The notes beneath the pieces are model-generated. The model ran no database searches. It had not been told where the DNA came from and saw only the letters and a list, made by a program, of their open reading frames with translations. From the NCBI GenBank assembly GCA_964358165.1, contig CAYHOB010000009.1:22298-86297 (forward strand): a stretch of DNA of 64,000 nucleotides, in the 5' to 3' direction. Of the stretch, positions 1,952-47,375 are shown one piece after another. Made by a program: the position numbers and the translations under genes. This DNA is from an uncultured Aquirufa sp. (GTDB taxonomy: Bacteria > Bacteroidota > Bacteroidia > Cytophagales > Spirosomataceae). Within the stretch, counting starts at the first letter, position 1, and each line of letters begins with the position of its first letter.

Positions 1952-3241
<1,290 letters not shown>

Positions 3242-3366
3242 ATAAAATGAAGATGTGTGCTTATGAGTAATAACTGGAAATAACAAGCATCCTCATAATG
3301 ATGCCGCAAGTTACGGCTTTATTTTTGCATTTCGCGCTTTCGGCCTTCAGCCGCGCGCGGTGGGAA

Positions 3367-3396
3367 ACGCTGCCGGGGTCATGACCCCGGCAGCGT
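3367..3396. repeat. Perfect 30-bp GC-rich palindrome
   Basis: ACGCTGCCGGGGTCATGACCCCGGCAGCGT is its own reverse complement (checked base by base). A second GC-rich hairpin lies at about 3333-3359. Confidence 0.9.
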
Positions 3397-3455
3397 AGCT
3401 GCTCTAACTTGCGAACGTTTTTTTTATGACATAAATTGTCCAAGAACTTGATATT

Positions 3456-3914
3456 CTACACAGGCAGAGCAGCCTGAATTTCAGTTGGCTTTTGTGTCCC
3501 TATTAACAATTTCGCTCCCGACTTAAATACTAATTGGAGTCCTTGATTCCCCGCCACATTAAAAACTTTTCCTTGACCGTTGAACCCATATTTAATTCCC
3601 CAGCCACCATATTCCAACAAAGGACGATAGGTACGAACTTTCGCAGATTCAATCGAATCCCAAGCATAAAATTGCTCTTTGAAGTGAAAGGGGATAAAAC
3701 GGACATAAATCCCTTGGGGAGTAATTCGGGTAAGGAGACGCATTTGCCGGAACAAAACGGGCAAGCCTAATCCAATAGAAATCGTCACAAAATAGGCAAC
3801 AACCGTTTCGGGAGGCTCTTGAATAAATGTATACATCATCGAAGCCCAAACACCAACCAGGATTAACCACAACCACCACTGGGTGAACCGCTGTGTTTCT
3901 TTAAATTCAGTCAT
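3456..3914 (-). CDS. DUF6141-like membrane protein
   Basis: FKETQRFTQWW, two TM segments, EYGGWGIK and GNQGLQL motifs typical of this Bacteroidota family (recognition from memory). Confidence 0.6.
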   Translation of the reverse strand: MTEFKETQRFTQWWLWLILVGVWASMMYTFIQEPPETVVAYFVTISIGLGLPVLFRQMRLLTRITPQGIYVRFIPFHFKEQFYAWDSIESAKVRTYRPLLEYGGWGIKYGFNGQGKVFNVAGNQGLQLVFKSGAKLLIGTQKPTEIQAALPV

Positions 3915-3981
3915 TTTTCGAATATTTACAGAGCGTAATTTTAGCCAAAAAATCAATATCTTGTGCTAAAATTCTAAACCT

Positions 3982-5628
3982 GTGAATAAAAAATTAAGCT
4001 ATATCATTGGCGCCTCGTCAGTTGGCACCCTGATTGAGTGGTACGACTTCTATATATTTGGTAGTTTGGCGACAGTTCTTTCGACCAAATTCTTCCCAAC
4101 AGACAATCCCACAGCAGCATTTTTAAATACCTTGGCGACTTTTGCAGCAGGTTTTGTTGTTCGACCCTTTGGCGCATTATTTTTTGGAAAAATTGGAGAC
4201 GTGATCGGTCGGAAATACACCTTTATGGTCACATTGATGTTAATGGGTGGAGCCACATTTGGCATTGGATTAATTCCCTCCTATCAAAGTATCGGTGCCT
4301 TGGCCCCTATTTCGGTTTTAATTCTACGATTACTACAAGGATTGGCACTAGGTGGCGAATATGGTGGAGCCGCAACCTATGTAGCGGAACATTCCCCCGC
4401 TCACAAAAGAGGCTTTTACACCTCCTGGATTCAAACCACAGCAACGCTGGGATTAATTATTTCATTAGGAGTAATCATGCTGACACGCAGCATTTTATCT
4501 CAAGAAGAATTTGATGCCTATGGATGGAGAATCCCTTTTCTCATCTCCATTGTCATGGTGATTGGCTCAATTATTGTGCGGAAAAATATGGCTGAATCGC
4601 CCTTATTTGAAGAAGCCAAAGCCAGCGGAAATGTTGCGGTCAACCCACTTAAAGAATCATTTGGAAATAAATTAAATTTGAAATTTGTCTTATTAGCCTT
4701 GTTTGGAGCAACCATGGGTCAAGGACTTGTTTGGTATACCGGACAATTCTACGCGCAAACCTTTTTACTCAAAATTTGTCGGCTCGAGGAAACACAAACA
4801 AACCTCATCTTGGTCATCGGTTTACTTGCCGGAACCCCATTATTTGTATTTTTTGGAGCACTTTCCGACAAAATTGGTCGCAAAGGAATCATGTTGGCTG
4901 GCATGGTATTCGCACTAATTTTGTATAGACCCATCTTTTCGACCATGTACGATTTAGTTGACACGAAACAAAAAACCGAAATCACCCATTTGATCACTTA
5001 CGAAAATGGAAATACGGTCAAAACATTTACGGATGGAAGCACGGAAACTTTCATGGATACAGGGGCAAAAATTCATGTCCCTTCCTCGATTCAGTGGAAA
5101 TTAATTGGTTTAATTTTCTGTCTAATCAGTTTTGTCAGCATGGCGTATGGCCCCATTGCCGCATTTTTAGTTGAGCTATTCCCCATTAAAATTCGATATA
5201 CGTCCATGTCCTTCCCGTATCACATTGGAAATGGAATTTTTGGCGGACTAATGCCTGCCATTGCGACTTTTTTAGTCACAACGGCTTCGAAAGATTCTAG
5301 TATCGCGAAACCCTATTTGGAAGGCTTAAACTACCCTATCGCGATGATATCGGTCTGTTTGATCATTGGATTAGTCTATATGAAAGATGCCAAAATCAAG
5401 AAAGAAGTTGAACTAAACGGCCTTAAACGACTTTTGGGTATCGTTTGGATGATTTTAGGAATTGCGACAGGATTATACTTAGTCTATTTTCAAGCGATAC
5501 CTTTATGGGAAAAAGGCGGTAACGACCTCGTCCCAGCCATTATTTACACATTTATTTTAGCCCCCTTCATCACGGTTGGCATGAGCCTTTTCGGCTATTT
5601 TGCTTTGCGCGGTGAATTTGACCAATAA
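3982..5628 (+). CDS. MFS transporter (MHS family) with a C-terminal two-TM extension
   Basis: GTLIEWYDFY, RPFGALFFGKIGDVIGRK, GGEYGGAATYVAEH, ELFPIKIRYT. About 70 extra C-terminal residues. Confidence 0.9.
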   Translation: MNKKLSYIIGASSVGTLIEWYDFYIFGSLATVLSTKFFPTDNPTAAFLNTLATFAAGFVVRPFGALFFGKIGDVIGRKYTFMVTLMLMGGATFGIGLIPSYQSIGALAPISVLILRLLQGLALGGEYGGAATYVAEHSPAHKRGFYTSWIQTTATLGLIISLGVIMLTRSILSQEEFDAYGWRIPFLISIVMVIGSIIVRKNMAESPLFEEAKASGNVAVNPLKESFGNKLNLKFVLLALFGATMGQGLVWYTGQFYAQTFLLKICRLEETQTNLILVIGLLAGTPLFVFFGALSDKIGRKGIMLAGMVFALILYRPIFSTMYDLVDTKQKTEITHLITYENGNTVKTFTDGSTETFMDTGAKIHVPSSIQWKLIGLIFCLISFVSMAYGPIAAFLVELFPIKIRYTSMSFPYHIGNGIFGGLMPAIATFLVTTASKDSSIAKPYLEGLNYPIAMISVCLIIGLVYMKDAKIKKEVELNGLKRLLGIVWMILGIATGLYLVYFQAIPLWEKGGNDLVPAIIYTFILAPFITVGMSLFGYFALRGEFDQ

Positions 5629-5632
5629 CACA

Positions 5633-7522
5633 ATGAGAATTAATACCTTAGCACAATACCACGAAGCGTATGCAAAAAGTGTGAATCAACCTGAACAATT
5701 TTGGGCTGATGTTGCCAACGAGTTCGACTGGATTAAGCCATTTACCAAAGTCCTTGATTGGAGTTTTGACGACTATTCGGTCAAATGGTTTGAAGACGGT
5801 CAAATGAACATTACAGCAAATGCGCTGGACCGTCATTTGAAAACCATTCCAGAGCAAGCTGCCATTATTTATGAACCCAATGAACCTGGAGATGAGGCTA
5901 TTACGCTGACATATCGCCAACTCCATGAACGCGTTTGTAAATTCAGTAATGTATTAAAAGCACAAGGAGTCCAAAAAGGGGATCGTATCTGTATTTACAT
6001 GCCGATGATCCCTGAATTAGCGATCGCCGTTTTAGCATGTGCGCGAATCGGGGCGATTCATTCGGTTGTATTTGGCGGATTTTCTGCGCAATCGATTTCG
6101 GATCGTATAAACGATTCCCAATGTAAACTGGTCATCACCACCGATGGGGCCGTACGCGGGAATAAAAACATCCCGATGAAAGAAACGGTTGACGATGCAC
6201 TGATTTCATGTCCAAGTGTAGAAACGGTTATCGTGAAAACTCGGACGAAAACTCCGGTTGCGATGTTCAAAGGTCGCGATCTCTGGTGGGAAGAGGAAGA
6301 GGCACAAGCCTCAGCAGTCTGTGAACCTGAGGCGATGAACGCGGAAGATCCCCTATTCATTTTATATACTTCAGGCTCAACCGGTAAGCCAAAGGGTGTC
6401 GTGCATACCTGTGGAGGTTACATGGTTTATACGGCTTATACCTTCGCGAACGTATTTCAGTACAATCCGGGAGATGTATTTTTCTGTACAGCAGATATCG
6501 GTTGGATCACTGGACACTCCTATTTGGTCTATGGCCCCTTATTGAATGGCGCGATTACGGTCTTATTTGAAGGAATACCAACTTACCCAGATGCGGGTCG
6601 TTTTTGGGATATTATCAAACGTCACCAAATCAACATCTTCTATACGGCACCTACCGCAATCCGTTCATTGATGGGTTTTGGAGACGAAGTATTAGCAGGG
6701 AAAGATTTAAGTTCCCTTCGAGTTTTGGGATCCGTAGGGGAACCTATCAACGAAGAAGCGTGGCATTGGTACCATGAAAAAATCGGACAGGGCAATTGCC
6801 CAATCGTTGACACGTGGTGGCAAACAGAAACAGGAGGTTTGATGATTTCCCCGATCGCGGGCATTACGCCTTTAAAACCTGCTTTCGCAACACTTCCCTT
6901 ACCTGGAGTTCAACCTATATTAGTGGATGAAAACGGCAAGGAAATCGAAGGAAATGGGGTCAATGGAAACTTATGCATCAAATATCCATGGCCATCCATC
7001 ATTCGGACAACCTATGGCGATCATGAACGATGCAAATCAACCTACTTCTCAACCTATCCAGGATTATATTTTACAGGAGATGGCTGTATGCGCGATGAGG
7101 ATGGATATTACCGAATCACCGGTCGGGTCGATGATGTGATGAACATTTCGGGGCACCGCATTGGAACCGCCGAAGTAGAAAATGCAATCAATATGCATAC
7201 CGGAGTCATTGAATCTGCGGTTGTTGGCTTTCCGCACGATGTCAAAGGACAAGGAATATATGCATACGTAATTTGTGAACACCCGACGATTAATGATGAA
7301 TTAACACGTAAGGATATATTGGCCACGGTTTCCCGGGTGATTGGACCTATTGCCAAACCTGATAAGATTCAATTTGTGACTGGACTTCCTAAAACCCGTT
7401 CGGGTAAAATCATGCGCCGCATTTTACGTAAAGTCGCCGAAGGCGAATTTGGTAGCTTGGGCGATACATCAACCTTGTTAGATCCATCGGTGGTGGATTC
7501 GATCATTAAGGGGGCGATGTGA
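5633..7522 (+). CDS. acs: Acetate--CoA ligase
   Basis: YTSGSTGKPKG, ADIGWITGHSY, DTWWQTETGG, PKTRSGKIMRR. Confidence 0.97.
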   Translation: MRINTLAQYHEAYAKSVNQPEQFWADVANEFDWIKPFTKVLDWSFDDYSVKWFEDGQMNITANALDRHLKTIPEQAAIIYEPNEPGDEAITLTYRQLHERVCKFSNVLKAQGVQKGDRICIYMPMIPELAIAVLACARIGAIHSVVFGGFSAQSISDRINDSQCKLVITTDGAVRGNKNIPMKETVDDALISCPSVETVIVKTRTKTPVAMFKGRDLWWEEEEAQASAVCEPEAMNAEDPLFILYTSGSTGKPKGVVHTCGGYMVYTAYTFANVFQYNPGDVFFCTADIGWITGHSYLVYGPLLNGAITVLFEGIPTYPDAGRFWDIIKRHQINIFYTAPTAIRSLMGFGDEVLAGKDLSSLRVLGSVGEPINEEAWHWYHEKIGQGNCPIVDTWWQTETGGLMISPIAGITPLKPAFATLPLPGVQPILVDENGKEIEGNGVNGNLCIKYPWPSIIRTTYGDHERCKSTYFSTYPGLYFTGDGCMRDEDGYYRITGRVDDVMNISGHRIGTAEVENAINMHTGVIESAVVGFPHDVKGQGIYAYVICEHPTINDELTRKDILATVSRVIGPIAKPDKIQFVTGLPKTRSGKIMRRILRKVAEGEFGSLGDTSTLLDPSVVDSIIKGAM

Positions 7523-43804: not shown

Positions 43805-44728
43805 TCAATTTGACAATTGTTGGGAATTTATGAAAGCAATTTTCTCATTAATATTTCTGTAGTATTCAGGATAATATTCCTTAAGCCATTTCCCTGAAAG
43901 CTCGGGGTATAATCGTTTATACCCTCCGTGAAAATGAACAAAATCAAAGTTCCTATAACCTGAATCAATTTTACTTTTTTGATAATCAAAATCTAAATTA
44001 AGCGTTGATTTGACCAATTTATTGACACATTTTAATTCAATTCTTGCCGTTTCATAAAAACAATACTGTTCATAAAAACAATTTAAAAATGATTTAGTAG
44101 TACTGTCTACATTTCGAAGAAACGGTATATTTAACTTTAGATTGTTAAAGGAATTTTGAGCATATCGATTGAAAAAATCATAATCATAGCCACCGGTAAT
44201 ACCCAAATTATAATCATTGTACACAAAGTTACTTTGTGCTATTATTCCTTTAAATTCTGGAGACATATTTATCTCGTAATTTAATATTTTATGAATAATC
44301 GTACTGTAACGCTTGAGAATACAATCATCATAATGAAATTCAACGAACAAATCATGTTCTAATTTATGCATATCAAAATGTTTACCTAAAACTACATCAA
44401 CATCGAAATGGACAAAAGGTTCTTTTATCCCAGCATAGGTAAGTAATTTTCCTGTTGACCAAAGATCAGAAGGAAACTCTTCAATCGCATCCATATCAGT
44501 AGAACAGGAATCATAAGGAAATTCAAAAAAATCTATCCATGCTTTTTTACCTTTCTCATCAGTATTTAAATGAACATGAGAAAAAACTTCCTTGAGGCTA
44601 AGCAATGAAAGCGCCCATGTATATATAAATTGGCTCTCATTGAGAAAGCCTCCTTGAGATCTAGCTTCAAATGAATTTGCAGCTGGAAAAGCAAATGGCT
44701 TAGACCAAAAAGATTGAATAACCTTCAT
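43805..44728 (-). CDS. DUF6734-like protein with a DxD motif (GT-A-like candidate)
   Basis: MKVIQSFWSKPF, WALSLLSL, LWSTGKLLTY, PFVHFDVDV, CFYEQY. Family recognised from memory. Confidence 0.65.
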   Translation of the reverse strand: MKVIQSFWSKPFAFPAANSFEARSQGGFLNESQFIYTWALSLLSLKEVFSHVHLNTDEKGKKAWIDFFEFPYDSCSTDMDAIEEFPSDLWSTGKLLTYAGIKEPFVHFDVDVVLGKHFDMHKLEHDLFVEFHYDDCILKRYSTIIHKILNYEINMSPEFKGIIAQSNFVYNDYNLGITGGYDYDFFNRYAQNSFNNLKLNIPFLRNVDSTTKSFLNCFYEQYCFYETARIELKCVNKLVKSTLNLDFDYQKSKIDSGYRNFDFVHFHGGYKRLYPELSGKWLKEYYPEYYRNINEKIAFINSQQLSN

Positions 44729-45255
44729 AAAAGACTTGCCATAAAAAATATGATTAAGAAAAAAAAGCTAATAATAAGTTTTGGCATCAATTTTTGCTTC
44801 AATTCTACACCAAATAAAAAAACAGAAAAAACAATCGAAATAATATCTGCAATTCGACTATATCTATGAAAATTTGTAAGCTCAATTTGGTTTAAAAAAT
44901 TTGGTGAGGTCGCATCTAGATTCGATATTTCATCTATCAAAAAGATCCAAATGAAACCGAATTTAAGTATTTCAGAAGTGATCAGGATAATAAAAAAAAT
45001 ATGAAATGCAGGCATAAACATGTCCAATTTCAAATCATGAATAAATAAGTTTGAACCATACCAAATCACTATTAATATACAATTGATAAACAAGCAATTA
45101 AAAGTTGTTGAAAAAATAATTGAAAAAATAGCAGTTATGCGAGCAACCATTAAGCCTTCATTTGACATGCCCTGGATTAACACTTCTGTTGCTATAATTG
45201 AAAAGATTATTTTCAGAATTAAAAACAGAAAAGCACTAAGTATTAAAGATTTCAT
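44725..45255 (-). CDS. Small multi-pass membrane protein (Yip1-like candidate)
   Basis: About 5 TM segments, 176 aa. ATGA overlap with the downstream gene. Confidence 0.55.
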   Translation of the reverse strand: MKSLILSAFLFLILKIIFSIIATEVLIQGMSNEGLMVARITAIFSIIFSTTFNCLFINCILIVIWYGSNLFIHDLKLDMFMPAFHIFFIILITSEILKFGFIWIFLIDEISNLDATSPNFLNQIELTNFHRYSRIADIISIVFSVFLFGVELKQKLMPKLIISFFFLIIFFMASLL

Positions 45256-45267
45256 AGCGATTGATAA

Positions 45268-45798
45268 TTATAAACTCTTGATAGAATAAGTCTCAATAAT
45301 GGCCGCAAATATCAATAACACAAAAGGGAAAAGAATAGATTTTAGTGAAGGTAAATCTGATACGATTTCTTTGTTTGAAATTGAATTTAAATTTAGGACA
45401 AAATTAAATCCAGATAATCCATACATTCCAAACAAACAAAATGATATTATTTCAAAGGGAACGTGTCCAAATAGCTTAATCAGAAGTTCAAACTCCAAAA
45501 CTTCATGAAGCTGTAATTTTGTAATTACAAATAAGGCCATACCAAATAAGTAACCATTAAAAATTAAAATAAAAACTGTCATTAAACCCGCGGTCGCATA
45601 GCCCATATAACAACAGAGCAAACCAACAGCAATATTCGTTTTGAATAGATAAGAAAACACTTCCCAAAATGACATAGATTTATATACTGAACTAACAGCT
45701 TGATCCGCAATCGGGACAATATATGTTAAATTGCTAGCTAGAAATACACCTGAAATCCAGAAAAACAAACAAGTATAAAACCGGAATATATTACTCAT
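45268..45798 (-). CDS. SpoIIM/DUF95 family membrane protein
   Basis: LFKTNIAV, LIFNGYLFG, GHVPFEI, LLIFAAIIETY match the SpoIIM pattern. Start overlaps the M48 stop by 8 bp. Confidence 0.8.
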   Translation of the reverse strand: MSNIFRFYTCLFFWISGVFLASNLTYIVPIADQAVSSVYKSMSFWEVFSYLFKTNIAVGLLCCYMGYATAGLMTVFILIFNGYLFGMALFVITKLQLHEVLEFELLIKLFGHVPFEIISFCLFGMYGLSGFNFVLNLNSISNKEIVSDLPSLKSILFPFVLLIFAAIIETYSIKSL

Positions 45799-46684
45799 TT
45801 GAAAATGTTTCCTCAATAAAAAGTAATCTTTGTTCGAGTGTAGGATGTGAAATTGACTTGACTTGAAGCTTCCCTCCCGTTATTTCATTTAACTTTTCAA
45901 GGGCTTTCATAATACTATTTTTTCCAACAATCTTGGCAGCAAATTTATCAGCGTCATGCTCCATTATTCTCTGAAAGAACCCCAATATTTCATTAGATAA
46001 CACTAAAAGGAGACCGAATGTGATTCCTTTAACAACCCATCCAATCTTATGTAGAAGAAAAAATGGCAAAATCATATGATTATAAATAATCATTATAATT
46101 ATCTGAATTATGATCATGATGAGCATCAAATAAAATAGATGATGCTTTTTTGTATGTCCTAATTCGTGTGCTATTACAGCTTTTAATTCGTCATTAGTTA
46201 AATTCTTTAGTAAAGGCATACCAATTAAAATAATTTTCGAAAAAGGAAGTATTCCAGTTGCAAATGCGTTGATTAACTCACGATTCACAATTCGAACCTT
46301 AACGGCATAATTCATTTCAACTTGAATAATTTTTTCCATATCCTTATTTTCTTCATATCTACTCGATCGAAATAGAATTACAATTGGATATAAAAGTGGG
46401 CCGAGTCCATAGAAAAAAACGATGAAAAAAATTAAAATTAAAATGCTGTCGGTTTGATTCTTATCCTGATTTTCTAATAATGGATAGAAAGTATAACTTA
46501 AAACAAAAACTATGATACTGAACAAAATAAAATACACGAAGTCAAAGCCACTTTTAAACTGTTTAATTGACTCAAAAAATTTATGATTTTTGCTAAAAAA
46601 TAACTCAGCTGCCAAACTAGCTAATAAGGTAATGACAGGGATTACAGTCGTTACTAATGCGAAAGTCAATCTTTTGTCCATCAT
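45791..46684 (-). CDS. M48 family membrane zinc metallopeptidase
   Basis: NAFATG, ELKAVIAHELGH (HExxH), EHDADKFA, HPTLEQR, several TM segments. Confidence 0.9.
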   Translation of the reverse strand: MMDKRLTFALVTTVIPVITLLASLAAELFFSKNHKFFESIKQFKSGFDFVYFILFSIIVFVLSYTFYPLLENQDKNQTDSILILIFFIVFFYGLGPLLYPIVILFRSSRYEENKDMEKIIQVEMNYAVKVRIVNRELINAFATGILPFSKIILIGMPLLKNLTNDELKAVIAHELGHTKKHHLFYLMLIMIIIQIIIMIIYNHMILPFFLLHKIGWVVKGITFGLLLVLSNEILGFFQRIMEHDADKFAAKIVGKNSIMKALEKLNEITGGKLQVKSISHPTLEQRLLFIEETFSNE

Positions 46685-46698
46685 AATTATGTTTTTAA

Positions 46699-46737
46699 AT
46701 GCTAGAAGATTTGACGAATGATTAAATCTTCTAGCAT
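46699..46737. terminator. 14-bp perfect stem-loop between the peptide gene and the M48 gene
   Basis: ATGCTAGAAGATTT (46699-46712) and AAATCTTCTAGCAT (46724-46737). Only a short U tract on the minus strand. Confidence 0.65.
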
Positions 46738-46746
46738 AATATTAGG

Positions 46747-46989
46747 TTAGAGACCACCAACAAACAATCCAATCCTACCTCCAATAGGACCACCGAAATA
46801 GGTACCAATTGCTAATCCTGCATATGCTCCCACGGCACCGACAATATAACCTTGCGTGTTATTCAAATGATAACGATCCGCGATCACAGCTGCAGCTTTT
46901 GCATTTACTAACGTAACATTATTTTGCTTAACAAGACCCATTATTGAGATTGAAAAGAAAAGTCCAGCAAAAAGATTCCATTTTTTCAT
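46747..46989 (-). CDS. 80-aa Gly/Ala-rich hydrophobic peptide, candidate circular-bacteriocin-like precursor
   Basis: Signal-like N terminus, GxxxG-rich C-terminal half, first gene of the M48/SpoIIM operon. Confidence 0.7.
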   Translation of the reverse strand: MKKWNLFAGLFFSISIMGLVKQNNVTLVNAKAAAVIADRYHLNNTQGYIVGAVGAYAGLAIGTYFGGPIGGRIGLFVGGL

Positions 46990-46999
46990 CTTGAATATA

Positions 47000-47067
47000 T
47001 TTACATTTCATCCCCTACTCTTCATTGGTTTTTCGGGATCCACCAACACTTGAATGTGCGATGTAAA
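47000..47067 (-). ncRNA. Candidate structured 5' leader RNA (three-way junction)
   Basis: Stems TTTACAT/ATGTAAA, GCAC/GTGT and ATCCC/GGGAT, plus a GAA/AGTA internal loop. Ends 10 nt before the peptide ATG. Confidence 0.35.
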
Positions 47068-47103
47068 CCTAGAAATCTCAACGAGGCAAATCAATACCAC
47101 CTA

Positions 47104-47132
47104 GGTAGTAATTTGGTAGTAATTTAGTAGTA
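47104..47132. promoter_or_regulatory. 11-bp-period direct repeats, candidate regulator binding site
   Basis: GGTAGTAATTT GGTAGTAATTT AGTAGTA, between the LuxR gene and the peptide gene. Confidence 0.55.
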
Positions 47133-47162
47133 CATACCCAGCAAATAACAAACAAAATAATT

Positions 47163-47375
47163 TTACTGAGGAGCATTTAGTAAAAACCTCAAAAATGCAA
47201 CCTTGCCTTTGATACCTAATTTTCGCATCACATTTCTGCGGTGACACTTAACAGTAGACTCTTCAATATTCAATTGGAATGCTATCTCTTTATTCGTCAA
47301 GCCTTCTTTGGCTAGATTAATAATTCGATTTTCGCGCATAGAAAATGGCATGAAATTATAGTTCATCGAATTCAT
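47163..47375 (-). CDS. Stand-alone LuxR/NarL-type HTH regulator
   Basis: FSMRENRIINLAKEGLTNKEIAFQLNIEESTVKCHRRNVMRKLG. No REC or ligand-binding domain. Confidence 0.85.
   Translation of the reverse strand: MNSMNYNFMPFSMRENRIINLAKEGLTNKEIAFQLNIEESTVKCHRRNVMRKLGIKGKVAFLRFLLNAPQ

What the first reader, a model, noticed from the sequence alone, without database searches (positions are those of the whole stretch)
43805..47375. Circular-bacteriocin-like (head-to-tail cyclised peptide) gene cluster in a Gram-negative Bacteroidota genome
Seen: a co-oriented set on the minus strand: LuxR HTH, 80-aa hydrophobic peptide, M48 peptidase (HExxH), SpoIIM/DUF95 protein, small multi-TM (Yip1-like) protein, DUF6734. 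The last four are tightly coupled (8-bp overlap, 12-bp gap, ATGA overlap). Established: a DUF95/SpoIIM membrane protein (As-48C type) next to a small hydrophobic precursor is the shared hallmark of circular bacteriocin clusters; Yip1-type proteins occur in several; the characterised examples I know are all Firmicutes. Inference: this is a RiPP pathway in which M48 removes the leader or performs transpeptidation and SpoIIM/Yip1 assist cyclisation, export or immunity. That would extend this chemistry to Bacteroidota.
Basis: partly seen in the sequence, partly recalled or inferred. Interest (0 to 1): 0.92.

Follow-up and report, generated by a model that had tools for sequence, protein, structure and literature searches.

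The report
Bacteriocin-like peptide operon in Bacteroidota
A small low-GC gene island in a freshwater Aquirufa-type bacterium very probably makes and processes a secreted glycine-rich antimicrobial-type peptide; its genes most resemble one recently described circular-bacteriocin cluster from Bacillus, but ring closure is untested and the cluster also carries a glycosyltransferase-like enzyme and a conserved RNA leader.

Summary
Six co-oriented minus-strand genes are present with the stated overlaps: LuxR, an 80-aa peptide, M48, SpoIIM, a multi-TM protein and DUF6734. Only the "Yip1-like" label fails. The peptide family has just 7 clusters among 5.8 billion proteins. Every context examined has peptide + M48 + SpoIIM + TM protein + DUF6734, and more distant loci keep peptide + SpoIIM + TM protein. 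The peptide gene is under purifying selection and is followed by a strong hairpin in every lineage. It is preceded by the Rfam DUF805b RNA motif. Elsewhere in Bacteroidota that motif sits 18-27 nt upstream of double-glycine-leader RiPP precursors. In A. regiilacus the same leader also drives a canonical class II bacteriocin/C39-ABC unit at this locus. DUF6734 models as a GT-A (GT8/GT6-like) glycosyltransferase fold, and 65 of 75 other DUF6734 loci have RiPP-type neighbours (3 of 77 controls). A bacteriocin/RiPP locus is therefore well supported (about 0.8). Cyclisation is not. There is no ATP-binding protein, the putative core is 48 aa (known ones are 58-76), and it shows no similarity to known circular families. 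The closest known system is the altitudin S-type cluster (precursor + adjacent M48 + SpoIIM + YIP1 + ABC). I put cyclisation at about 0.25-0.3.

The parts
47163..47375 (-). Stand-alone 70-aa LuxR/GerE helix-turn-helix regulator. It is lineage-specific rather than part of the core module.
   Evidence: PF00196, 4e-17. Present upstream in the Aquirufa-type loci, and a different small HTH gene is present in the Saprospiraceae locus L018. Absent upstream in L001 and L183-L190.
47012..47046 (-). DUF805b-type RNA motif in the 5' leader, ending 22 nt upstream of the peptide ATG. It has a 4-bp stem, a conserved GGAnnCCGAAAA loop and a GAGUAGG tail.
   Evidence: Rfam RF02914 full-length match: 32.0 bits (gathering 35.6), E 2e-6. 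It is above gathering in L001 (40.3) and L105 (35.9). My own CM finds it 18-27 nt upstream of precursor peptides in 14 of 16 non-module hits and not in 77 control loci. The stem covaries.
46747..46989 (-). 80-aa precursor peptide. Residues 1-32 form a hydrophobic signal-like leader (MKKWNLFAGLFFSISIMGLV...NAKA). The putative 48-aa glycine-zipper core is residues 33-80 (AAVIADRYHL...IGTYFGG...RIGLFVGGL).
   Evidence: Only 7 homolog clusters in 5.8 billion proteins, and every context examined is in the module. pN/pS 0.14-0.27. Invariant A30, A32-A34, D38, Y40, IGTYFGG, R72 and L80. Short contigs in three metatranscriptomes cover it.
46699..46737 (-). Stem-loop with a 14-bp main stem immediately after the peptide stop codon, with no U-tract. 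I infer it is a transcript attenuator or 3'-end stabiliser.
   Evidence: dG -16.7 kcal/mol, z -6.8, 0 of 200 shuffles as good. An equivalent hairpin with a different sequence is present in five other lineages.
45791..46684 (-). 297-aa membrane M48 zinc metalloprotease next to the precursor gene. I infer it is the leader peptidase.
   Evidence: PF01435, 3.5e-24. H173/E174/H177 and E242 are invariant across lineages. Hydrophobic segments flank the catalytic region. Generic M48 relatives lack this context.
45268..45798 (-). 176-aa SpoIIM/DUF95 membrane protein (ATG start, 8-bp overlap with M48).
   Evidence: PF01944, 9e-13, above cutoff. Only 10 close homolog clusters, all in module context where examined. 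It remains paired with the TM protein in distant loci L191 and L195-L197.
44725..45255 (-). 176-aa multi-pass membrane protein of an unnamed family, the constant partner of SpoIIM. It has conserved charged residues E24, R39, E95 and K98.
   Evidence: No Pfam or NCBIfam hit, and no Yip1 hit in 15 relatives. 16 relatives among 1.84 billion representatives. The contexts of three distant relatives carry SpoIIM and/or DUF6734.
43805..44728 (-). 307-aa soluble DUF6734 protein, modelled as a GT-A glycosyltransferase fold with invariant H107-x-D109-x-D111 and H265. I infer it is a peptide-tailoring enzyme.
   Evidence: PF20508, 2e-52. AF2 pLDDT 91.8. All top Foldseek PDB hits are GT8/GT6 retaining glycosyltransferases: 62 hits at E<1e-3, TM 0.35-0.43. 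65 of 75 other DUF6734 loci have RiPP-type neighbours against 3 of 77 controls.

Best explanation
This is an accessory operon that produces a ribosomal, leader-bearing, glycine-zipper peptide of the bacteriocin/RiPP type. The proposed mechanism has six steps. (1) The peptide mRNA starts with a DUF805b-type leader and, in Aquirufa, lies downstream of a small LuxR-type regulator gene. A strong hairpin after the stop codon keeps peptide transcript in excess over the downstream genes. (2) The 80-aa precursor is made in the cytoplasm. Its conserved 32-aa hydrophobic leader takes it to the membrane and to the enzymes. (3) The soluble GT-A-fold enzyme DUF6734 modifies the core before export, most plausibly by glycosylating a conserved Tyr or Thr (Y40, Y56, T63 or Y64). 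(4) The membrane M48 zinc protease cuts at the invariant A-x-A-A-A junction and releases a core of about 48 aa. (5) The SpoIIM protein and its partner membrane protein move the core across or into the inner membrane, protect the producer, or both. (6) The mature glycine-zipper peptide acts on membranes of competing cells. Shown computationally: gene identities, catalytic residues, strict co-occurrence, purifying selection, the two RNA elements, the fold and RiPP contexts of DUF6734, and weak in situ transcription. Inferred: the cleavage site, the enzyme-substrate pairings, export or immunity roles, and antibacterial activity. I do not assume ring closure, which I put at about 0.25-0.3. The general claim of a bacteriocin/RiPP-type peptide locus I put at about 0.8. 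The full six-step mechanism with a non-cyclic product I put at about 0.45.
For: The peptide family is tiny, and every context examined is the module. The gene order is conserved across at least five lineages. Distant loci retain peptide + SpoIIM + TM protein, with the same C-terminal GGL-stop. pN/pS is 0.14-0.27. A hairpin follows the stop codon in six lineages, with diverged sequences. The DUF805b motif lies 22 nt upstream, and the same motif lies 18-27 nt upstream of GG-leader Cys-rich precursors in other Bacteroidota but not in controls. In A. regiilacus the same LuxR gene and leader precede two GG-type peptides, HlyD and a C39-ABC exporter inserted at this locus. DUF6734 has a GT-A fold, an invariant HxDxD...H, no TM segment, and RiPP neighbours in 65 of 75 loci against 3 of 77 controls. 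The M48 catalytic residues are invariant. Altitudin S is a precedent for an M48 gene next to a bacteriocin precursor, with SpoIIM (bioRxiv 10.1101/2025.10.31.685828). The region is a GC trough. Metatranscriptome contigs cover the peptide gene.
Against: No activity, processing or modification has been observed, so all enzyme-substrate links rest on gene association. The leader resembles a Sec signal peptide with an AxA site, so signal peptidase rather than M48 could cut it. The L195-type loci lack M48 and apparently DUF6734, so neither is essential to the peptide-SpoIIM-TM core. There is no outer-membrane export component and no ATPase. The Foldseek TM-scores for DUF6734 are modest (0.35-0.43), and GT8-like enzymes also act on lipopolysaccharide. 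The precursor model is low-confidence (pLDDT 60). The metatranscriptome evidence is thin (depth 1-4) and may include DNA.
Confidence: 0.45

Rival explanations
1. A true head-to-tail cyclised bacteriocin. M48 removes the leader, the N- and C-termini of the 48-aa core are joined, and SpoIIM with the partner membrane protein exports it or gives immunity. This would be an altitudin S-like pathway without an ABC transporter, possibly with added glycosylation.
For: SpoIIM/DUF95 is regarded as the class-defining gene of circular bacteriocin clusters (PMC13289728, PMC7132975) and is present above the Pfam cutoff. Precursor + adjacent M48 + SpoIIM + small multi-TM protein is the altitudin S arrangement (bioRxiv 10.1101/2025.10.31.685828). 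The exact C-terminus (GGL-stop) is conserved even in very distant loci, which fits a requirement for a defined C-terminus. The 32-aa leader is within the known 2-56 aa range. The hydrophobic, weakly charged, Gly/Ala-rich core resembles subgroup II peptides in composition (PMC5471241, Table 6). An I-A-D-x-aromatic motif sits near the start of both cores, but this is anecdotal.
Against: There is no ATP-binding protein in the island, although one is reported in all known clusters (PMC8534725). The core is 48-54 aa against 58-76 aa. It has no polybasic region (two basic residues), a feature of 93% of circular bacteriocins (PMC7132975). It hits no Pfam or NCBIfam circular-bacteriocin family. hhalign against subgroup II gives probability 0.25%, and the IAD motif is not invariant. 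The AF2 model is not a compact multi-helix bundle, though it is low-confidence. The TM protein is not detectably Yip1. The DUF95 knockout evidence points to export, not ligation (PMC7132975). Mining found circular precursors only in Firmicutes, Actinobacteria and Thermotogae (PMC8534725).
Confidence: 0.27
2. Not an antagonistic system. The peptide is a Sec-exported glycine-zipper envelope protein of the producer, comparable to YMGG/SlyB-type small membrane proteins. M48 is an HtpX-like quality-control protease, SpoIIM and the TM protein are membrane partners, and DUF6734 is an envelope glycosyltransferase.
For: The leader looks like a signal peptide with an AxA site. There are faint glycine-zipper hits to Gly-zipper_YMGG, PdsO and YiaD. 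M48's best NCBIfam hits are HtpX models, all below cutoff. The GT8 fold also covers lipopolysaccharide glycosyltransferases (general knowledge). No exporter or outer-membrane component is present.
Against: The distribution is extremely narrow and patchy, and the region is a GC trough. It shares its 5' RNA motif with GG-leader RiPP precursors. A class II bacteriocin unit under the same leader sits at the same locus in A. regiilacus. DUF6734 is overwhelmingly RiPP-associated. The precursor-type hairpin is present. Generic M48/HtpX relatives lack this context.
Confidence: 0.12
3. A peptide signal (pheromone) system. The processed peptide is exported and sensed, and the LuxR-type regulator controls the locus.
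For: A LuxR-family HTH gene lies directly upstream in Aquirufa. Many class II bacteriocin loci are pheromone-regulated (general knowledge).
Against: The LuxR protein is only a 70-aa DNA-binding domain with no sensor part, and it is absent from most lineages. A 48-aa hydrophobic glycine-zipper core is unlike known pheromones. No sensor kinase is present.
Confidence: 0.05

Closest known systems
Altitudin S-type circular bacteriocin gene cluster (Bacillus altitudinis ECC22 and Bacillales homologs; bioRxiv 10.1101/2025.10.31.685828)
   Same: Small precursor with a long leader. An M48-family metallopeptidase gene directly adjacent to the structural gene. A SpoIIM/DUF95 membrane protein. A further small multi-pass membrane protein.
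   Different: Altitudin S clusters always have ABC transporter subunits, and their extra membrane protein is a recognisable YIP1. Here there is no ABC transporter in the island and no Yip1 signal. Altitudin S has a 56-aa leader and a 76-aa highly cationic (pI 11, +13) five-helix core. Here the leader is 32 aa and the core is 48 aa, glycine-zipper type, pI 8.5. The window adds a GT-A-fold DUF6734 enzyme, and the host is a Gram-negative Bacteroidota.
Classical circular bacteriocin clusters (AS-48, carnocyclin A, garvicin ML, gassericin A/acidocin B subgroup II)
   Same: A DUF95/SpoIIM gene next to a small hydrophobic precursor. The Gly/Ala-rich, weakly charged core resembles subgroup II in composition.
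   Different: No ATP-binding protein, no large As-48B-type membrane protein, and no family or profile similarity of the peptide. The core is 10 or more residues shorter. Cyclisation is untested.
Glycocins (sublancin SunA/SunS/SunT/BdbA/BdbB; glycocin F)
   Same: A bacteriocin locus that contains a glycosyltransferase-fold enzyme. The distant DUF6734 loci (for example L040) closely mirror the sublancin layout: GG-leader Cys-rich peptide, glycosyltransferase-like enzyme, thiol-oxidoreductase (VKOR/thioredoxin), C39-ABC exporter.
   Different: DUF6734 is not a SunS-type GT2 enzyme; its fold matches retaining GT8/GT6 enzymes. The window peptide has no Cys and no GG leader, and the island has no C39 exporter. 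No glycosylation has been shown.
Glycine-zipper bacteriocins of Gram-negatives (Caulobacter CdzC/CdzD, PMC5380434; class II microcins, PMC12219008)
   Same: Small glycine-zipper or Gly-rich ribosomal peptides used by Gram-negative bacteria against relatives.
   Different: Those are exported by type I secretion or C39-ABC systems after double-glycine leader cleavage. The window uses M48 + SpoIIM + a novel TM protein and a hydrophobic leader.
DUF805b RNA motif (Rfam RF02914, candidate cis-regulatory RNA)
   Same: Full-length match with the conserved loop and tail and a covarying stem, located in a 5' leader.
   Different: Rfam names it after DUF805 genes. Here and in 14 other loci it directly precedes small bacteriocin/RiPP precursor genes. 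I did not find that association in the searchable literature.

Membership tests
Circular (head-to-tail cyclised) bacteriocin gene cluster | DUF95/SpoIIM (PF01944) protein encoded in the cluster | tested here: met
   PF01944, 9e-13, 48.8 bits against a cutoff of 26.9.
Circular (head-to-tail cyclised) bacteriocin gene cluster | ATP-binding (ABC) protein encoded in the cluster (reported in all known clusters, PMC8534725) | tested here: not met
   The island between the lpdA terminator and the MATE gene holds only six genes, none with an ATPase domain. The same holds in other lineages. The C39-ABC gene in A. regiilacus belongs to an inserted GG-leader unit.
Circular (head-to-tail cyclised) bacteriocin gene cluster | Precursor belongs to a known circular-bacteriocin peptide family (Pfam/TIGRFAM models; subgroup I or II) | tested here: not met
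   No such Pfam or NCBIfam hit at E<=1. hhalign against five subgroup II cores gives probability 0.25%.
Circular (head-to-tail cyclised) bacteriocin gene cluster | Core of about 58-76 aa forming a compact 4-5-helix bundle with a polybasic patch | tested here: not met
   The putative core is 48 aa (54 aa in other lineages) with 2 basic residues. The AF2 model shows one long helix across the core but is low-confidence, pLDDT 60.
Circular (head-to-tail cyclised) bacteriocin gene cluster | Amide bond between the first and last residue of the core | not testable with these tools
   Needs mass spectrometry.
Altitudin S-type subgroup | M48 metallopeptidase gene adjacent to the structural gene | tested here: met
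   The M48 gene starts 62 nt after the peptide stop codon. PF01435, 3.5e-24, with invariant catalytic residues.
Altitudin S-type subgroup | YIP1-family membrane protein | tested here: not met
   A multi-pass membrane protein occupies a comparable place, but 15 family members give no Yip1 hit at E<=10. No profile-profile or structural test against Yip1 was possible.
Altitudin S-type subgroup | ABC transporter subunits | tested here: not met
   None in the island.
Altitudin S-type subgroup | Homology of M48 and SpoIIM to the Bacillales cluster proteins | not tested
Glycocin (glycosylated bacteriocin) cluster | Peptide glycosyltransferase in the cluster | tested here: inconclusive
   DUF6734 models as a GT-A fold with an HxDxD motif, and its PDB neighbours are GT8/GT6 enzymes. 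TM-scores are 0.35-0.43, it has no sequence similarity to SunS-type GT2 enzymes, and no activity is known.
Glycocin (glycosylated bacteriocin) cluster | Double-glycine leader, C39-ABC exporter, Cys-rich core with thiol-oxidoreductases | tested here: not met
   Absent from the window. Present in many distant DUF6734 loci.
DUF805b RNA (Rfam RF02914) | Score at or above the curated gathering threshold (35.6 bits), with a full-length match | tested here: inconclusive
   The window copy scores 32.0 bits, full length, E 2e-6, which is below gathering. The orthologous copies in L001 (40.3) and L105 (35.9) are above it. The stem covaries across 21 instances.
Pfam DUF6734 (PF20508) | Full-length match above the gathering score | tested here: met
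   178.6 bits against a cutoff of 27, residues 1-295 on profile positions 1-285 of 286.

The most novel reading that the evidence does not exclude
The product is the first head-to-tail cyclised bacteriocin from a Gram-negative phylum and the smallest known (46-48 aa). It would be matured by an M48 protease and a SpoIIM/partner-protein pair without any ABC transporter, and additionally glycosylated by a new GT-A-fold peptide glycosyltransferase family (DUF6734). In the same reading, the DUF805b RNA would be a dedicated leader element of bacteriocin precursor genes across Bacteroidota.
Probability: 0.2. Interest if true: 0.9.

Novelty: new variant of a known kind. Interest (0 to 1): 0.72.

Why it matters
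SpoIIM/DUF95-linked peptide clusters have only been characterised in Gram-positive bacteria, and how circular bacteriocins are cut and ligated is still unknown. A minimal five-gene version in a cultivable freshwater Bacteroidota (A. regiilacus LEOWEIH-7C carries it) has an M48 protease but no ABC transporter. That makes it a compact system for testing what M48 and SpoIIM actually do. Two by-products may matter more widely. First, DUF6734 emerges as a candidate peptide-tailoring glycosyltransferase family, embedded in RiPP-type contexts in 65 of 75 other Bacteroidota loci examined (334 relatives were found in species-representative genomes). Second, the orphan Rfam motif DUF805b acquires a concrete genomic role as the 5' leader of bacteriocin/RiPP precursor genes, which could serve as a new handle for mining such peptides.

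Tried and rejected
(1) Yip1 identity of the 176-aa protein was rejected at the sequence level. There was no hit for 7 close or 15 wider relatives at E<=10. (2) Kinship of the peptide with subgroup II circular bacteriocins through the shared 'IAD-x-aromatic' start was rejected. hhalign gives probability 0.25%, and the motif varies (IMD, LAD). (3) A DUF805 domain in the M48 N-terminus was rejected. The faint hit (E 0.013) is not reproduced in three other lineages. (4) A known anti-phage defence system was rejected: there are no meaningful PADLOC hits. (5) tblastn of SpoIIM against 72,556 plasmids, looking for As-48C-like relatives, found nothing (best E 0.5). This is uninformative because known clusters may not be in that collection. 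(6) The AF2 model of the precursor has pLDDT 60, so I did not run a fold search on it. (7) The search for an empty site found no metagenome contig that skips the island. The flanks are merely 3-9 times deeper than the island in two runs, which is suggestive only. (8) Sigma-70 promoter and terminator scans were at background, and TAnnTTTG counts were at background. (10) LuxR as a core component was rejected because it is absent from most lineages.

Full report
OBSERVATION. Pfam confirms four of them: GerE/LuxR (47375-47163, 4e-17), Peptidase_M48 (46684-45791, 3.5e-24, HELGH), SpoIIM/DUF95 (45798-45268, 9e-13, above the curated cutoff) and DUF6734 (44728-43805, 2e-52). The 8-bp overlap, the 12-bp gap and the ATGA overlap are exact. 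The 80-aa ORF (46989-46747) has no family hit, only faint glycine-zipper matches. The 176-aa protein (45255-44725) has several hydrophobic segments but no Pfam or NCBIfam hit. The 'Yip1-like' label is unsupported for it and for 14 relatives, some only 21-24% identical. The cluster lies in a GC trough, 0.30-0.35 against about 0.42. It sits between the lpdA terminator (47642-47615) and a convergent MATE gene. The closest genomes are Aquirufa, freshwater Cytophagales.

IS THE SMALL ORF REAL, AND IS IT TIED TO ITS NEIGHBOURS? Yes. A profile of the peptide finds only 7 clusters among 5.8 billion proteins. Every context examined has the same order: peptide, M48, SpoIIM, TM protein, DUF6734. The same order appears when starting from SpoIIM, from DUF6734 and from M48. 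Together these give at least five lineages, with SpoIIM identity as low as 45% and M48 identity as low as 32%. Among the 79 best DUF6734 loci from one genome per species (185,579 species in the collection), only three carry the module: two Aquirufa-type genomes and one Saprospiraceae MAG. The peptide gene is under purifying selection. pN/pS is 0.14-0.27 overall, 0.07-0.25 in the core and 0.20-0.52 in the leader. The invariant positions are the junction A30, A32, A33 and A34, then D38, Y40, IGTYFGG, R72 and the C-terminal residue L80. A deep search with the TM protein reached more distant loci. L191 has M48-SpoIIM-TM. L192 has TM + DUF6734 beside divergent ABC genes. L195-L197 have a 92-aa peptide of the same design (signal-like N-terminus, Gly/Ala zipper, ending ...VVGGL-stop) followed by SpoIIM and the TM protein, with no M48 and apparently no DUF6734. 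The oldest unit is therefore peptide + SpoIIM + TM protein, and M48 and DUF6734 are add-ons. LuxR is lineage-specific.

TWO RNA ELEMENTS MARK THE ORF AS A PRECURSOR-TYPE GENE. First, a strong stem-loop follows the stop codon directly. In the window it has a 14-bp main stem at 46737-46699, dG -16.7 and z -6.8. Equivalent hairpins with different sequences occur in all five other lineages tested. There is no U-tract, so its role as an attenuator or 3' stabiliser is an inference. A hairpin between the structural gene and the maturation genes is the usual bacteriocin arrangement (general knowledge). Second, Rfam's DUF805b motif (RF02914) matches full-length at 47046-47012, ending 22 nt upstream of the ATG. 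The score is 32.0 bits and E is 2e-6, just under the 35.6-bit gathering score. The orthologous copies in L001 (40.3 bits) and L105 (35.9 bits) are above gathering. A covariance model built from the module copies was run over all 197 fetched loci. Outside the module it hit DUF6734 RiPP loci. In 14 of 16 such hits the motif lies 18-27 nt upstream of the ATG of a 46-83-aa precursor, nearly all with double-glycine leaders and Cys-rich cores. The 77 control loci gave nothing better than E of about 0.07. The 4-bp stem covaries: 3 of 4 pairs show compensatory changes, 98.6% of cells are paired, and 0 of 500 shuffles reach this. The caveat is that the alignment was fitted to the model. In A. regiilacus the same LuxR gene and the same leader are followed by two peptides with GG-type leaders, a HlyD protein and a C39-peptidase ABC exporter. 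A second copy of the leader then precedes the glycine-zipper peptide module. The same regulatory leader therefore drives a textbook class II bacteriocin unit at this very locus. Three metatranscriptomes contain short contigs over the peptide gene, and in one of them it is the only part of the cluster detected. Depth is low, so this is weak evidence.

DUF6734. No paper in the library mentions it. Seventeen homologs share invariant H107-x-D109-x-D111, N174/G176/G179/G180, Q221, H265 and K271. The protein has no hydrophobic segment. The AF2 model is confident, with pLDDT 91.8 and pTM 0.90. All its top PDB neighbours are retaining GT-A glycosyltransferases: GT8 (XXYLT1 at 2e-5, glycogenin, LARGE1) and GT6 (GTA/GTB, alpha-1,3-GalT). 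There are 62 hits below 1e-3, although TM-scores are only 0.35-0.43. A profile search against PDB sequences finds nothing. Among 75 non-module DUF6734 loci, 65 have a RiPP-type neighbour within 6 kb, against 3 of 77 control loci. The neighbours are a GG-leader Cys-rich peptide in 28, a C39-ABC exporter in 22, a VKOR/thioredoxin protein in 17, a LanC-like protein in 24 and HlyD in 14. The L040-type layout mirrors the sublancin glycocin cluster: peptide, DUF6734 fusion, VKOR-thioredoxin, C39-ABC, HlyD. DUF6734 is therefore best read as a cytoplasmic peptide-tailoring enzyme, probably a glycosyltransferase. That role in the window is an inference.

IS THE PRODUCT CIRCULAR? The literature gives a clear yardstick. 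[quoted passage not shown] SpoIIM is treated as class-defining (PMC13289728). Its knockout in leucocyclicin Q left mature circular peptide inside the cells, which points to export rather than ligation (PMC7132975). The closest precedent is altitudin S, an MS-proven circular peptide. Its conserved cluster has an M48 gene next to the precursor, plus SpoIIM, a YIP1 protein and ABC subunits (bioRxiv 10.1101/2025.10.31.685828). The window shares the adjacent M48, the SpoIIM and a small multi-pass partner protein. It lacks any ATPase, and its partner protein is not detectably Yip1. Its putative core is 48 aa, 25% Gly, pI 8.5, with two basic residues. Known cores are 58-76 aa, and 93% of them have a polybasic region. 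It matches no circular-bacteriocin family. I noticed that the core begins AAVIADRYHL, or AAAIADHYGW in another lineage, while published subgroup II cores begin IYWIADQFGIHL (PMC5471241). hhalign finds no relationship, and the motif is not invariant. I treat this as coincidence until shown otherwise. The conserved exact C-terminus is compatible with cyclisation but does not prove it. I put cyclisation at about 0.25-0.3.

MECHANISM I COMMIT TO. The peptide transcript starts with a DUF805b-type leader and, in Aquirufa, lies downstream of a LuxR-type regulator gene. The 3' hairpin keeps it abundant. The cytoplasmic precursor is tailored by DUF6734 on a conserved Tyr or Thr. The membrane M48 protease, whose HExxH and Glu ligand are invariant, cuts at the A-x-A-A-A junction. 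SpoIIM and its partner protein export the core, protect the producer, or both. The glycine-zipper core then attacks competitors' membranes. The alternatives are ring closure (0.27), a non-antagonistic envelope protein with HtpX-like quality control (0.12) and a pheromone (0.05). The main weaknesses are as follows. The leader could simply be a Sec signal cut by signal peptidase. M48 and DUF6734 are dispensable in the L195 lineage. No outer-membrane export route is evident. No biochemical observation exists.

NOVELTY AND VERDICT. This is a new variant of a known kind. It is a SpoIIM/M48-type bacteriocin-like cluster in Bacteroidota, without an ABC transporter, with a new partner membrane protein and a GT-A-fold tailoring enzyme. 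The side findings are arguably as interesting as the cluster itself. DUF6734 appears to be a RiPP enzyme family, and DUF805b appears to be a bacteriocin-precursor leader. The decisive experiment is mass spectrometry on A. regiilacus LEOWEIH-7C, with the predicted masses given.

Noticed in passing
L027:9663-9697(-), L045:695-730, L071:8720-8754, L090:6639-6670, L094:4125-4156 and 6657-6688, L064:8374-8405, L041:4040-4071 and 6676-6707, L040:6732-6763, L031:4560-4592, L081:1569-1606, L077:3933-3967, L065:3411-3445: The Rfam 'DUF805b' RNA motif (stem + GGAnnCCGAAAA loop + GAGUAGG tail) sits 18-27 nt upstream of the ATG of small double-glycine-leader, mostly Cys-rich precursor peptides in many Bacteroidota genera. 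It was absent from 77 control loci. This suggests the orphan motif is a 5' leader element of bacteriocin/RiPP precursor genes.
   Followed up: yes
L025:216-4725 (Aquirufa regiilacus LEOWEIH-7C): Between LuxR and the glycine-zipper module, this strain carries an inserted class II bacteriocin unit: two GG-type-leader peptides (601-786, 791-961), HlyD (1170-2306) and a C39-ABC exporter (2215-4467). The unit is bracketed by two near-identical copies of the DUF805b-containing leader, so the locus behaves as a bacteriocin hotspot.
   Followed up: yes
L031, L040, L041, L043, L046, L056, L069, L079, L081, L086, L090, L093, L094 (peptides next to DUF6734 fusion proteins): Roughly 20 of about 35 GG-leader peptides beside DUF6734 genes have Tyr as the first core residue (GG|Y...). 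DUF6734's structural neighbours include glycogenin, a tyrosine-glucosylating GT8 enzyme. This is a lead for Tyr O-glycosylation and nothing more.
   Followed up: partly
L032-L037, L039, L044, L050, L051, L053, L054, L057-L060, L062, L065, L074, L076, L087, L102 and others: In 24 loci a ~300-aa DUF6734 gene is immediately followed by a 610-670-aa protein with an N-terminal LanC-like domain (for example L034:7901-9889, PF05147, 7e-23), sometimes with a phosphopantetheinyl transferase. This looks like a second, uncharacterised RiPP-like architecture.
   Followed up: partly
L001:820-1134 (also L002-L007; proteins P0033, P0034): Gene callers annotate a 104-aa version of the peptide whose first 19 codons (MVEPEKPDKSREQ...) are in fact the DUF805b RNA motif. 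The true start is the internal ATG (MKKGN...), giving 85 aa.
   Followed up: yes
L023:718-8493: Four tandem GG-leader peptides (MTKLELFKQN...IKGG|HHKKSGKK..., three with a Cys/Pro-rich tail), a Ser/Thr protein kinase, a 1307-aa peroxidase/lectin protein with a T9SS sorting domain, and then a DUF6734 gene.
   Followed up: no
L192:1631-5845: A distant relative of the TM protein is paired with DUF6734 but not with SpoIIM or M48. It lies divergent from ABC_tran / DUF5687 / ABC_tran genes, and an AbiJ/Abi_C protein is encoded downstream.
   Followed up: no
L107:4394-5788: An apparent remnant of the module: a signal-like Gly-rich peptide (possibly frameshifted), an M48 gene (35% identical) and a 71-aa ORF that looks like a truncated SpoIIM start.
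   Followed up: partly
window:40411-41070 (+): The DUF4290-family protein upstream of murA ends in an unusual Asn/Arg-rich low-complexity tail (...NNNNNRNNNFRKNNNFRNNNNRNNNYRKNK).
   Followed up: no
window:42800-48400 in runs X6 and X18: The flanking lpdA and MATE genes are covered 3-9 times more deeply than the island in two metagenomes, and contigs break at about 47,685. This hints that co-occurring relatives lack the island or carry a different one. No island-skipping contig was found.
   Followed up: partly
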